Made by a program: the position numbers and the translations under genes. From Eledone cirrhosa (taxonomy: Eukaryota), in NCBI GenBank assembly GCA_964016885.1, contig OZ024742.1, forward strand, positions 350,734,001-350,798,000: DNA of 64,000 nt, written 5' to 3'. The notes below the pieces were generated by a model. It saw only the letters and a list, made by a program, of their open reading frames with translations. It ran no database searches and was not told where the DNA came from. Positions 56,326 through 61,961 of the stretch are shown here, in pieces (position 1 is the stretch's first letter; each line of letters opens with the position of its first letter).

Positions 56326-58370
56326 ATGGATAACACAAAAAAGAGAGAGAGAGCGCTGTCAGACAACACAGAGAGAGGGAGACTTTTTCAGCATGTCAAC
56401 AAGACAGCGTTCCAGCGGAGGTAAATATAAATGAAAATATTACAAAGGAAAAAAAGATTGTTACAGATTTAAAATTACCAAATATTTCTAACACAAACAA
56501 CACCACCAACAACACCAACAACATCGCCAACAACAACAATAACAGCGGTAAAGTCGAGAACGACAATAACAAAAATAACAGCGGTAAGGTCGAGAACGAC
56601 AATAACAAAAATAACAGCGGTAAGGTCGAGAACGACAATAACAGTGACAATAACAACAGCCACAACAACAATAATAGTAGGATCAGTATCAACAAAAACA
56701 ACAATAATAACAACAGCCACAATAACAGTAACAGCAGCAACAGTATCAACGAAAACAACACCAACAACTGTACCAGCGAAAAGAACAACAATGACACCGT
56801 AACCTGTAATAGCGACCTCAGCACCACTAGTAAGACCAGTAGCGCCAGCAATAGTGGTGCTGCTGAAAAAGGTACCACTTCTTTTGCATGTGTCGCCCGA
56901 AATATCGAGACAGTGTTAGTCACAGAGGAGGAGATGGCAGTCGCAAGGGCCATGGTGACAAGAAGCGCAAATAGAGTTCCCCTGAAACCTCCACCCGATT
57001 TTTTCAAGGACCAGCAGCTACGAACGGTGATTTACCGCACCGTAAGCAAAATCTCACACCGAGTGGAGAGAGCCACGGAGGCTCAAATCCAAAAGGCCTT
57101 GGTGTGCGTCTGGGCACGCAAAACCCACATCACCCGAGGCAGAAAATACGCCACAGTAGACGTATTTTTCGCCACCCCCCAGGAAGCAAAGTCTCACTCT
57201 TTGGAAACCCTAAAGAGTGAGGAATTAGTCTTGGTGCCCTCCTACTTCGGGCAGACAATTGTGAGGGTCAAAGTGACCCAGGTCCAACCCGACGTGCCCA
57301 TACCTTGGCTGGCCGTGTCTGTCCTTGCTGGAATTGAGAACAAGGCGACCATGCTGCAAGTAGAAAAAATAGGGAAAGAGAACTGGTCAGGTATAGGCAT
57401 GCAAATGCTTATACAAACTGACCAGGAATGTATCGAGGCTATCCCCGATATCATAGACTTTGAGGAAGGACTCCAACTCCCTATAAATGTAGAAGGAAGA
57501 CGGCCAAAATGTTATCTCTGTGGGTCGAAAGGTCACCTCAGGGCCTTTTGCCCGCAGAAGACACCGAAGAGGGCCCCTCACCTTCCAATACCTGGTCCGC
57601 TGCTACCAAGAGCAGGACAGGCAACAAACGAAGAAGCCCCTTCGACGGTGAGTAGGAGGGCAACGTCCGTAGCACCCGTACCAAGGCCACGGATAACTAA
57701 AGCAGCATCATCAGTAGCGGCAACACCGATAGCTACATTTGAAATAGCTACACCAGCAACAACATTGCCGAAGAGGGCTCCACTACCACCACCAACAGCC
57801 GTGGAGCACATACCCCTCCCAGACGCCACTGAATCCGACATGCAGTTTGAGGCGGGAGTGACATGGCAAACAGTCTGCCACAAAAAAACAAAAACAAAAA
57901 AAACAACCTTAGATTCACCCTCCAAAAGCGAAGGCATACGAAGAGGGGTAAAGGCAGCAAGGAAACTTGCAGCAACACCACCACAAACACCAACAACGCA
58001 AACACAACAAGACACACACACCAAACAGCAACAAGAAGAAAACGGCAACAAAATCACCCCTCCCCCCAAAAAGTACACAGCCATAAACATAGCAAAAAAA
58101 GAACTTATAAAATATATAAAGTAGCACACAGACATCACGGAAACAAACTACTACACCCCACCAACACCAAGAACTCTCCCGACAAACATAAGCATCATCG
58201 AAATCTCAATAGAACAATAGAAACCTTTAAAACAAAAATTCCCCAACGCAGTTGAAGACTTCAGAGGGACGGTTACCAAGAGGATATACACTGACATCCT
58301 CTTGGAAACACCCATGACCAGCGAAAGGGACGGTTCTACTGTCCCTTCACCACACGAACGAGGTAAGTGA
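56326..58370 (+). pseudogene. ORF1 of family B (zinc knuckle, Asn-rich repeats)
   Basis: Frameshift near the start and two premature TAGs (58122 and about 58218); natural end ...ERGK* at 58368-58370. Confidence 0.8.
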
Positions 58371-58402
58371 CCCTTTCTCATTTGCCCCATTTCTCATCCA
58401 AC

Positions 58403-61400
58403 ATGGCTGTACTCAGAATAGGCAGTATAAATGTACGTGGCCTGGGGTCATCTTGGAAGCAGGGTCACCTGCTCAATGACCTCAGGTCACTAAACATAGA
58501 TGTGGTGGCCATCAGTGAAACCAGAATCTCCGAGGCACGGGCCTTCACACCGATCTTCGGCGGCTACGATGTATACGCATCTGCCAGCCGTCCAGGATCG
58601 GGGGGAGGGGTTGCCGTCCTTTTTCGGAGAGGCTTGGATCTCGCGATACGGGCCATCTTCCTGGATCCAGAAGGTAAGTCGGTGGTGCTGGACGTGACCG
58701 GCAGCGAAGGCAATGCTTTCAGGCTAGTAGCCGTCTACGCCCCAGCAGGGGCTGGACGGCCAGATTTCTTCAGACGTCTAGAGACCTTTCTTGGAACGTC
58801 CCGCTCTTTAGTGTTAGTGGGCGGCTGGAACGGTATCTTGGATGCACGCTGGGATCGTGTGGGGCTAGTGGATAGGGGAGGAGGGTGCAAGAGCCTCACC
58901 AACCTGCTCAGACGGTTTGAACTGTCTGACAGGTATCGACTGGATCACCTGAATGTGCCAATGTGGACATGGACAAACCGCATCGGGTCACGCAGGGAAC
59001 TAGATAAGGCTAGTATAAATTGTACACAATTTAAAATAGTCGACTACACAGACCACAAATTTGTGATCTGTGAGATCGACATAGATAGACTTCATAGACA
59101 AGGGCCTGGTTACTGGAAGCTGAACGTCTTTCCCGGCGCGCAAGGCCTACAGAGACCGGATTAGCGTATTAGTTAAGCGGGCGTTGACGGGAGCGGTCGT
59201 CAGCAACAGTCGATTAGGTTTAGCAAAGGAGTAATGATAGAGGAAAATAGAGTAGATGGAGCTCTAGTCAGAAAGCTAGAAGAGGCGTTTAGGACAGGCA
59301 TCGCAAACGACGTGCTTGCGGCGAGATTGGCACTCGACCAATTCTTCAACGCAAAACACGAAGGCTGCGTTGTCAGAGCTAGAGCGCGTGCTTTGAAACA
59401 CGAGGGGACAAAAGCCGTCCAATGGGCCCCGGTGGCAGAGGCGCGCTGTGGCAATAAAGCCACAATTCAGTCTTTGTCTGACCAAAACGGGTGCGTGATG
59501 CTCGAACCCGAGCGGATGTGTGAAGCTTTTCAGCAGCAATTTGCTGAACAGTTCGCGTGCGGCGGCGGCCCGGATCGGGGCATGGACTTCAGTGCATACC
59601 TCGACGGACTCCCTCGGCTCTCGACGACCGCAGCACAGTGTTGCGAAAAGCCAATAACAGCCGGTAAAATACGGGAAGCGATAAATCGCCAGGTTTAGAT
59701 GGTCTGCCCTACGAGCTTTATGCATTTATGCCAGACTTGTTCGGTGACCTCTTGGCAGACTTCTACTCCAACTGGCAGCAGAACGGGAGCATTCCCAGTT
59801 TTGTGAGCCGGGGAGCAGTGGCGCTGCTGAGAAAAGACCCGAACAAGGGCGATGTTATTGATAATAACGCAGAGTTCAAGATTTTGGCCAAGGTGTTAGC
59901 AACGAGGTTGGCGCTTGTCGTCAAGGGTCTGGTGGGAGAGGCGCAGACACGCGCCATCCCGGACAGATCCATACACGACAACCTCCACCTCATGCGATAC
60001 ATCATAGAGAATGTGGTTAAGGAACCTGACAAGGGTGGGGCCCTGATCAACTTGGATCAATCCAAAGTATTCGATAGGGTCGACCATCGGTACCAGGCGG
60101 CGGTCCTCGAGGCAGCCGGTTTCGGGCCCGTTTTCAGGCGTTGGATCGCAGCAATGTACAGCGACATCTGCTCAGTTGTGAGGGTGAACGGTCACCTGTC
60201 GCAGCCGTTCAGTATCATGCGCTCAGTGCGCCAGGGTTGTCCCCTCTCGTCCCTCTTGTACGTAGTCCCACGCGAACTAGGATGCGGGAAATCCGAGTCG
60301 GCTTACGCTGACGACGTCACCGTGGTGGTGTCGAGCACCAGACACGTCCAGATGCTCGGCACCGCTCTCAAGGAATACGAAACGGTGATCGGAGCAAATA
60401 TAAACCAGGAAAAGTCGGTGGGCTTGCAGCTAGGCACCTGGAGAAGCAAGTCCATGCCGTCCGACAGCGTCGTGGGGCGTTGGACGGACGGACCGGTTAA
60501 ATTGCTCGGGGTCTGGTTCGGACCGGACCTCCAGATGGAGAAAAACTGGAACGAGGTGACGAGCAGGGTGGCCTCCCTCACCCAGAAATGGGCTGAGAGG
60601 AAGCTATCCCTGAAAGGCCGGGCGGAAGTGGCGAATGCGTACATCGCATCCGTCATCTGCTACCGCCTCACCGTCGTCCCTTGCTCCAGCCCAACTCTCA
60701 CCAAAATGGAGCGCCTCCTCTTCCGCTTTTTGTGGAAGGGACGCGCTCCCATGGTCAGACGATCCATCTGCTGTCAACACCCGTTGCGTGGAGGACTGGG
60801 CATGCCATGGCTGATGATGCGCAAACATGCGCTGAGGCTGCGACATCTCTGGTGCTTCCTTGATGGTGAACGGGTGTGGTGGCCGTTCGCCAGGCATATT
60901 TTCCCACAGCTCGTCTCCTTGACGGAGCTGCAGTACTGGGTCAGAAAAAGACCGAGGGATAACGCTTGGAAACTGGAATGTTTCCAGGCGCTCACTGCCC
61001 TCTCCCAGTTGGGCACCAGTATCGGTGGAACATCCACCTCGGCGTTCTATAGAGGACTAGTGGAGGGGAAGAGCGACGACGTTCTCGGAGAGATCCTGGG
61101 CGTCGAAGAAGATCAGCTGCTTGCTCTCTTCCGGAGAACTTTCAGCTCGGGGCCTATGGATAACTTCCAAAAATCCCTGGCCTGGCAGTGCTACCGGAGA
61201 GCGCTGCCGTTTCGAGATAATCTCTACAGGCACGGAAGTGCCGTCAGCCGAGCCTGTCCGAGATGCGCGCAGAGCGACGAAACCGTTGTGCACGCACTCG
61301 TTCAGTTCCCGAGCATTGCTGACTTGTGGAGCTATGTCAAACAGTTGCTGTCACGTGTGGGACTGATCCGGTTGTCGACTGAATCTATTGTGCAGATGGT

Positions 61401-61671
61401 CTCGCCGTCTTCCTTTGAGGAGGAAGGGCAGGCGGTTTTCATCTGCCTGGTGGCCATGGCGAAAGAGATTGTGTGGTGGACAATGTTAAAAGGATTAAAG
61501 ACAAACACTTTCCTCTTCGGCGAATCCCTGATTAACTTTTTCAAGTTTCACTTGAAGAGGAAAATCAGGGTGGAGAGGCAAGTGCTGCTTTCTAGCAAGT
61601 TTGTTGAAAGGTGGGTGAATGTAGCGAGAATGGTCCGAGTGAACGGGACCACTCTGAATATACGTCTGTAG
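58403..61671 (+). pseudogene. ORF2 of family B (APE-RT), frameshifted
   Basis: ORF pieces 58367-59164, 59234-59698 and 59728-61671; RQGCPLS, AYADD, CPRC. Confidence 0.9.
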
Positions 61672-61961
61672 TTTGAGAGATGGAAACATTGAGAGAGGGC
61701 GCTTGCTCTGGTAGTCAGGGTGGCCGTGGTCTTTTGTGTGGTTTTCGCCACGAGTAACCCTCGGAGGTTTCCCCCCTATTGGGGAATTTTTCATTGTTTC
61801 AATTTTCATTTTATTATTTATATATATATATATGTATTATGTCTTTTTTCTTTTCTCATATAAATAATAAAAAATATTTACACGCACAAAACCCACATCG
61901 TACCGTCCTGTTCCGTCTGTGATTTTTTTCTTGATGTCAGCCCTTGTGGCCAATAAAGAAA

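What the first reader, a model, noticed from the sequence alone, without database searches (positions are those of the whole stretch)
58359..61676. The divergent family B keeps the same ORF2-as-intron design with a compensating phase shift
Seen: ORF1 ends CGA G|GT AAG TGA, the same GAGGTAAGTG 10-mer as family A, followed by a pyrimidine run and CCAACATGGCT. ORF2 ends ctgaatatacgtctgTAG|TTTGA. Here the donor is phase 1 rather than phase 2, and the downstream TGA is shifted by one base accordingly, so splicing 58363-61671 gives GTT TGA (Val-stop). ORF1 and the 3' UTRs are otherwise poorly alignable between families A and B. This covariation of phase and stop position is independent support for selected splicing.
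Basis: partly seen in the sequence, partly recalled or inferred. Interest (0 to 1): 0.82.

Follow-up and report, generated by a model that had tools for sequence, protein, structure and literature searches.

The report
RNA clasp loops out LINE ORF2
In this abundant animal jumping-gene (LINE) group, the sequence around the start of the enzyme gene is complementary to the sequence around its end 3.4 kb away; this predicted RNA clasp likely controls when the enzyme is made and likely hides a strong splice-donor-like signal, while the proposed 'whole gene is an intron' phase match fails in most related families.

Summary
The motifs sit at the stated coordinates in a Tx1/L1-like LINE, but the phase/stop covariation argument fails. 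The shared 10-mer is a 9-mer (29 of 29 other copies read CAAG|GT). Of 18 subfamily representatives only 7 have a stop right after the ORF2-end AG in the donor's phase (permutation P=0.12). None of three donor-phase switches on the tree is compensated. The commonest family, which includes the window's third element, ends ORF2 in TAA. Family B's acceptor is weak. No spliced retrocopy was found (B 0 vs 245; A 0 vs 1,553); no RNA run was available. What holds up: a donor-like motif at the ORF1 end in all 18, and a predicted 50-63 bp duplex pairing ORF1 end, donor, spacer and ORF2 AUG with the ORF2 stop and 3' UTR start. It is the best partner on the element in 18 of 18, co-varies by clade, and is absent from 31 distant LINEs. 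B's 'compensating' TGA pairs with the spacer's TCA. Most likely role (inferred): coupling ORF2 translation to ORF1 and masking the donor. The scan noted both donor and zipper before on other copies in this genome.

The parts
56117..61963 (+). Family B non-LTR retrotransposon copy (defective), between (ATT)n tracts at 56090-56116 and 61964-61999
56346..58370 (+). ORF1 (Asn-rich N-terminus, CCHC zinc knuckle); two in-frame stops in this copy at 58122 and 58218; family stop TGA 58368-58370
58360..58368 (+). 5' splice-site-like motif GAG|GTAAGT (family majority AAG|GTAAGT), phase 1; predicted paired to 61701-61709
58349..58416 (+). 5' arm of the predicted long-range duplex: last ORF1 codons, donor, pyrimidine spacer, ORF2 AUG and first codons
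58403..61671 (+). ORF2 (AP endonuclease, reverse transcriptase, zf-RVT); frameshifted and partly deleted in this copy; stop TAG
61654..61712 (+). 3' arm of the predicted duplex: last ORF2 codons, TAG, purine-rich 3' UTR start; TGA 61674-61676 pairs with TCA 58394-58396; may extend to 61742
61952..61957 (+). AATAAA poly(A) signal
58671..58679 (+). second consensus donor-like word AAG|GTAAGT inside ORF2 (B1, C1, H only)
39199..44448 (-). Family A copy: intact ORF1 (44448-42661) and ORF2 (42636-39199); phase-2 donor cut 42665/42664; same predicted duplex (-57 kcal/mol)
62000..64000 (+). 5' part of the third element (family C); beyond the window it has AAG|GTAAGT (phase 2 in the family), ORF2 ending TAA, and the same duplex

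Best explanation
The sequences at the two ends of ORF2 are complementary and likely pair into a 50-63 bp RNA clasp that would loop out the whole ORF2 and bury the ORF1 stop, the donor-like motif, the ORF2 start codon and the ORF2 stop. Shown by sequence comparison: the complementarity, its presence in every subfamily sampled, and its clade-wise co-variation. Inferred: a ribosome finishing ORF1 runs into the top of the clasp and melts it, which frees the ORF2 AUG for reinitiation, so ORF2 is made rarely and only on RNAs that also made ORF1. Inferred: once the 3' arm is transcribed, the clasp masks the donor from U1 and the ORF2-end AG from the spliceosome, which keeps the full-length RNA intact. 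The acceptor-like CTG-TAG, the pyrimidine spacer and B's downstream TGA are mostly by-products of this pairing, not of a selected ORF2-long intron.
For: Duplex energy -51 to -78 kcal/mol; the ORF2-end window beats all other 211-383 windows on the same element in 18 of 18. 0 of 200 dinucleotide shuffles reach it in 17 of 18, 2 of 200 in K; no cross-clade 3' arm is better in 10 of 18, at most one in 15 of 18; the sense strand is more stable than the antisense in 18 of 18. It forms in whole-region folds of 3.8 kb for B1 and C1. 14 of 46 recurrent column pairs show a two-sided change; G-C to A-U at ORF2 codon 2 arose in both K and C, with G-U in B1. The duplex persists in family C, which has no AG at the stop (11 of 11 copies with an end found) and gives 98 of the first 100 of 5,224 matches, against 4,786 for all ATGGC families. 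It is absent from 31 of 31 distant L1/Tx1-like elements with a full ORF2. ORF1 already has its own stop in the unspliced RNA, unlike EVD gag. No spliced retrocopies.
Against: No RNA, probing or translation data: every functional step is inferred. The pairs were predicted from the same sequences on which they are counted, and the arm alignments are uncertain in the spacer. The donor's GT is invariant in 18 of 18 although +2 cannot pair in 6 and +3/+4 in 7-8, and in E and F the core is neither paired nor a stop codon, so the donor likely has a role of its own. In A1 and D the in-phase TGA breaks a G-C pair that A2-A4 keep, and A1's duplex is the weakest of its clade, which fits selection for splicing there. 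In A, D, F, G, I, J, K the terminal TAG ranks 1-8 among 25-121 YAGs by pyrimidine count.
Confidence: 0.5

Rival explanations
1. ORF2 is a retained spliceosomal intron (copia-like): part of the RNA is spliced from the ORF1-end donor to the ORF2-stop AG to make an ORF1-only mRNA, and the clasp tunes the ratio by bringing the sites close or masking them. It could hold in A1, D, E, F and B only.
For: Donor is the best or second-best U1 match of the element in 16 of 18; 98 of the first 100 ORF2-start matches have GT at this place, counted by eye; TAG in 16 of 18; good pyrimidine tract in the A/D/F/G side; immediate stop in 7 of 18; precedent in Drosophila copia, whose intron covers the entire pol region (PMC5580714, passages). 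Cis preference would make spliced retrocopies rare (recalled).
Against: Phase match not above chance and not compensated on the tree; family C has no AG at the stop; B's TAG ranks 22-37 among about 125 YAGs; both sites are predicted buried; zero spliced retrocopies in B, A, D, C, F/I/G although spliced human L1 RNAs do leave retrocopies (PMC5860796, abstract); splicing is not needed to end ORF1.
Confidence: 0.25
2. The donor binds U1 without splicing, during transcription, to block early polyadenylation or aid elongation; the clasp then evicts U1 once the 3' UTR exists so that the RNA can be ended and exported.
For: Donor kept where the acceptor is lost (family C); donor paired to the 3' UTR at 4-8 of 9 positions in every representative; U1 has this role in Arabidopsis EVD (PMC5580714, passages).
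Against: ORF2 holds AATAAA in only 1 of 18 representatives (plus the window B copy), so little needs shielding; three B2-type copies share a donor changed at +1 and +4, a hint that a donor-less element may have been copied.
Confidence: 0.13
3. The donor is a coincidence frozen by other constraints: +2 to +4 are the ORF1 stop codon in phase-2 families, and +1, +5, +6 pair with the 3' arm.
For: 13 of 18 are phase 2, where GT-RR overlaps TAA/TAG/TGA; +1, +5, +6 can pair in 17-18 of 18; an equally good AAG|GTAAGT occurs inside ORF2 of B1, C1 and H.
Against: It needs a near-perfect U1 match to have arisen by chance at the ancestral stop; the motif survives the loss of the stop role in E, F, B and a 43-nt insertion just upstream in C.
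Confidence: 0.12

Closest known systems
Tx1-clade non-LTR retrotransposons, microsatellite-targeting Kibi/Koshi type (PMC4494074, passages); L1-Tx1 families in Octopus vulgaris (PMC13282606, passages)
   Same: Two ORFs, APE + RT ORF2, insertion in simple repeats ((ATT)n for B, C, E; (ATCT)n for A2, F).
   Different: No donor or ORF2-spanning duplex is mentioned in the passages read; placement against named Tx1 references was not tested.
Drosophila copia and Arabidopsis EVD subgenomic gag RNA (PMC5580714, passages)
   Same: Strong 5' splice site at the end of the structural-protein gene; copia removes all of pol; U1 also blocks early termination in EVD.
   Different: LTR elements with one ORF, where splicing makes the gag stop; here ORF1 has its own stop, the acceptor is lost in the largest family, and no spliced product is seen.
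MS2 phage Min Jou long-distance interaction (PMC11339067, passages)
   Same: A long-range pairing that shuts the replicase start until ribosomes on the upstream gene melt it.
   Different: 7 bp over about 300 nt, partner inside the upstream gene, bacterial initiation; here 50-63 bp over 3.4 kb, partner at ORF2's own stop and 3' UTR; function untested.
SART1 and mammalian L1 termination-reinitiation of ORF2 (review PMC5972666, passages)
   Same: ORF2 translation coupled to ORF1 termination across a short junction; SART1 needs an RNA structure.
   Different: SART1's structure is described as downstream of an overlapping stop-start; no pairing with the 3' end is described in the passages read.
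Human L1 SpIREs (PMC5860796, abstract)
   Same: Splice sites within a LINE RNA.
   Different: Intra-5'UTR or 5'UTR/ORF1 splices, harmful dead ends that leave genomic copies; none found here.

Membership tests
L1/Tx1-group LINE | ORF2 with AP endonuclease, RT and C-terminal zinc-binding motif | tested here: met
   Pfam PF03372, PF00078, PF13966; best solved relative human L1 ORF2p, E 2e-47
L1/Tx1-group LINE | ORF1 with CCHC zinc knuckle | tested here: inconclusive
   zf-CCHC E 0.006 and 0.05, below Pfam's cut-off; motif visible in translation
Tx1 clade | Target preference (here microsatellites) | tested here: met
   B and C in (ATT)n in the window; simple-repeat 3' flank in 4 of the 6 other loci whose poly(A) end was printed, one more uninformative; not counted genome-wide
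Tx1 clade | RT phylogeny groups with named Tx1 elements | not tested
   no named Tx1 reference among the hits
GT-AG spliceosomal intron spanning ORF2 | Consensus 5' splice site | tested here: met
GT-AG spliceosomal intron spanning ORF2 | YAG with pyrimidine tract at the 3' end | tested here: inconclusive
   strong rank in A/D/F/G side, weak in B, absent in C; simple pyrimidine count only
GT-AG spliceosomal intron spanning ORF2 | Branch point | not tested
   no branch-point model was run
GT-AG spliceosomal intron spanning ORF2 | Spliced RNA | not testable with these tools
   no RNA holder listed
   7 of 18, P=0.12; tree
Copia-type subgenomic gag RNA | Splicing is needed to create the structural protein's stop | tested here: not met
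   ORF1 stops within two codons of the donor in the unspliced RNA of every representative
Conserved long-range RNA duplex | Complementarity above background, with compensatory change | tested here: met
Conserved long-range RNA duplex | Formation in cells | not testable with these tools
   needs probing

The most novel reading that the evidence does not exclude
A LINE clade runs its two genes with one RNA switch: a co-evolving clasp across 3.4 kb that, closed, protects full-length RNA and makes ORF2 translation wait for an ORF1 ribosome, and, when it fails to close in time, lets the spliceosome cut out all of ORF2 to give an ORF1-only mRNA.
Probability: 0.25. Interest if true: 0.82.

Novelty: new variant of a known kind. 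Interest (0 to 1): 0.58.

Why it matters
How LINEs translate ORF2 and keep it scarce relative to ORF1 is a long-standing question. A 50-60 bp duplex with natural compensatory variants in many young families makes it directly testable with reporter swaps, and it names a structure that my four searches on LINE splicing and long-range pairing (listings only) did not turn up. It also warns that apparent splice-acceptor and stop 'covariation' can come from RNA pairing.

Tried and rejected
RNA evidence: no RNA holder listed. DNA runs X1-X3: the predicted joint is not among the 15 joints shown of 677 nor the 15 shown of 49; most rows were hidden, so this is inconclusive. Junction patterns: ended in a not-C letter that falls on a C in most predicted junctions, so they were blind for A1, A2, A4 and for C; redone. 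Family E's junction was not searched; D has no genome-wide denominator. One search (ORF2-less C copies, gap up to 160 nt) found 0 but had no positive control. Odd hits were followed: three were an unrelated satellite and one a family-C ORF1 end; one C copy joins the donor position to an internal ORF2 site without an AG, read as a microhomology deletion. A short intron fusing ORF1 to ORF2 was rejected by eye: nearest AGs are out of phase in B, F and G, and introns would be 34-59 nt. No closer outgroup to the 40%-identical ENA relatives exists in G000, and those relatives have no DNA context here, so the claim in earlier notes that a distant relative keeps the donor was not tested. The host is probably an octopus (earlier notes and my recall of genome traits); not tested.
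Full report
What the region is. The window lies at G000:C3:350734001-350798000 of a 3.0-Gb animal genome. It holds three full-length members of one LINE clade: A (minus strand, intact ORFs), B (56117-61963, the finding) and C (from 62000 on). ORF2 carries AP endonuclease, RT and zf-RVT domains, ORF1 a weak CCHC knuckle; the nearest solved relative is human L1 ORF2p. B and C sit in (ATT)n tracts, like the microsatellite-targeting Tx1 elements Kibi and Koshi (PMC4494074, passages). 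The B copy is defective, with two ORF1 stops and a broken ORF2.

The observation. The donor at 58362/58363, the spacer, the ATG at 58403 and TAG|TTTGA at 61669-61676 are as described, and the ORF1 frame is right. One detail is wrong: G58360 is private; 29 of 29 other copies read CAA G|GT AAG TGA. The family donor is AAG|GTAAGT, a better U1 match, but the '10-mer shared with A' is a 9-mer.

Sampling relatives without selecting for the donor. I searched the genome for the ORF2 start by its protein motif and read the 60 nt upstream: 4,786 matches begin ATGGC and 5,224 begin otherwise, 98 of the first 100 of the latter being family C. In one search, 98 of the 100 listed have GT at the homologous place (by eye), in variants GTAAGT, GTAGGT, GTGAGT, GTAATT. 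I fetched 60 elements. 44 rows, the two window copies included, had a usable ORF2 end; the rest lacked an end within 6.6 kb, were chimeric (L076, L080) or had a damaged stop. From these I took 18 representatives (A1-A4, D, K, F, I, I2, J, G, E, B1, B1b, B2, H, C1, C2). They are not independent: I and I2 are one subfamily, and H, J, K are single copies.

The covariation test. A stop within one codon after the ORF2-end AG, in the donor's phase, is found in A1, D, E, F, B1, B1b, B2: 7 of 18; shuffling phases gives 4.9 on average, P=0.12. A stop in the phase-1 frame follows the ORF2 stop in 12 of 18, including 7 with phase-2 donors (I, I2, J, G, H, C1, C2). On ORF2 trees the donor phase changes at least three times (F within the I/J group; E and B; C and H), and the downstream stop does not move at any of them. 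The TAG-G-TGA state of A1 and D is absent from A2, A3, A4 and K, which share A1's phase. Family C ends ORF2 in TAA in 11 of 11 copies with an end, so the commonest family has no AG there; the window's third element is one of them. By pyrimidine count B's TAG ranks 22-37 of about 125 YAGs downstream of the donor; on the A/D/F/G side it ranks 1-8. The A-versus-B contrast is a two-point fit.

Spliced copies. Exact junction patterns found none: B 0 against 245 exon-end matches; of 29 B exon ends not followed by G, none continues into the 3' UTR; A 0 against 1,553 unspliced; D 0; C 0; F/I/G 0. Searches were blind for most predicted junctions and are not counted. Cis preference (recalled) weakens this test, but spliced human L1 RNAs do leave copies (PMC5860796, abstract). 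No RNA run was listed.

What explains the 3' features. Earlier notes of this scan on other copies (e1-8673698, e1-8674120) proposed pairing between the two ends of ORF2; I tested it. The 5' arm (donor -25 to ATG +15) and the 3' arm (stop -15 to +75) form a duplex of 50-63 pairs. In the window's B copy the donor 58362-58369 pairs with 61700-61708, the spacer with 61674-61699, and CAACAUGG with the CUGUAG stop region; the 'compensating' TGA 61674-61676 pairs with TCA 58394-58396. The cognate window is the best partner along the element in 18 of 18, beats 200 dinucleotide shuffles in 17 of 18 (2 reach it in K), beats every cross-clade arm in 10 of 18 and all but at most one in 15, and is more stable on the sense strand in 18 of 18. 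Mean cognate energy is -67.7 against -53.5 kcal/mol for swapped arms. It appears in whole-region folds of B1 and C1. 14 of 46 recurrent column pairs show two-sided changes; these counts lean toward the structure because pairs were predicted from the same sequences. Among 71 metagenomic L1/Tx1-like loci, the 31 with a full ORF2 show neither a strong donor near the ORF2 start (score 7 or less, against 7.5-8.5 in 16 of 18 here) nor a duplex better than background; a few of their start codons are uncertain.

The donor. It is the best U1 match of the element in 8 of 18 and has one equal or better rival in 8 more. Part of its constancy has other causes: in 13 phase-2 representatives +2 to +4 are the stop codon, and +1, +5, +6 pair with the 3' arm. 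But it survives loss of the stop role in E, F and B, stays unpaired at its core in A, E and F, and survives a 43-nt insertion beside it in C. I read it as probably functional, with its use unknown. Against need: three B2-type copies share a doubly changed donor.

Mechanism. Shown: complementarity, conservation and co-variation of the arms; a clade-wide donor-like motif; failure of phase covariation. Inferred: the clasp buries the ORF2 AUG until a ribosome ending ORF1, whose last codons lie in the duplex, melts it, as ribosomes on the MS2 coat gene open the replicase start (PMC11339067, passages) and in line with termination-reinitiation proposed for SART1 and L1 (PMC5972666, passages). Inferred: the same pairing hides donor and AG in the finished transcript. 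I put this at 0.5, copia-like splicing in some families at 0.25 (precedent: PMC5580714, passages), U1 binding without splicing at 0.13, and a coincidental donor at 0.12.

Novelty. The element is a new member of a known group. An ORF2-spanning, co-evolving duplex that includes a consensus donor did not appear in the listings of my searches; the library lacks most subscription journals and Repbase reports, and I read no supplements. The scan had already noted donor and zipper on other copies in this genome; new here are the failed phase test across 18 representatives, the loss of the acceptor in the largest family, and the pairing of B's TGA.

Noticed in passing
G000:C1:130078389, C1:130123695, C3:4086393 (L196, L197): Three B2-type copies share a donor changed at both +1 and +4; two may be a local duplication, but a donor-less element may have been copied.
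   Followed up: partly
L195:2474-2517: Family C's ORF1 end is B's end plus 43 nt placed just before the donor, which shifts the donor from phase 1 to phase 2 with no change after the ORF2 stop.
   Followed up: yes
window 44667-46574 (-): 5'-truncated family-A-like copy directly upstream of the intact A copy, with a short rearranged stretch at its 5' junction (about 46570-46650).
   Followed up: no
G000:C1:4238260-4255749, C1:55427330-55453339: Copies of one family occur head to tail at about 5.7-6.9 kb spacing, as expected if the element targets the repeat at its own end.
   Followed up: no
window 21932-23608 and 24446-26112: 1.68-kb inverted repeat, 99.4% identical, around a 471-codon ORF at 23073-24488 (-).
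   Followed up: no
window 28393-32371 and 32976-37014: 4-kb direct duplication (93%), each copy with a 67-bp tandem array.
   Followed up: no
L076, L080, L195, window A copy: Mixed elements: 5' part of one family with the 3' end or an inserted piece of another; the window A copy groups with A1 at the ORF2 start and with A2 over the last 800 nt.
   Followed up: partly
L192, L193 (G000:C28): A tandem satellite of about 57 bp that matched the B exon-end pattern by chance.
   Followed up: yes
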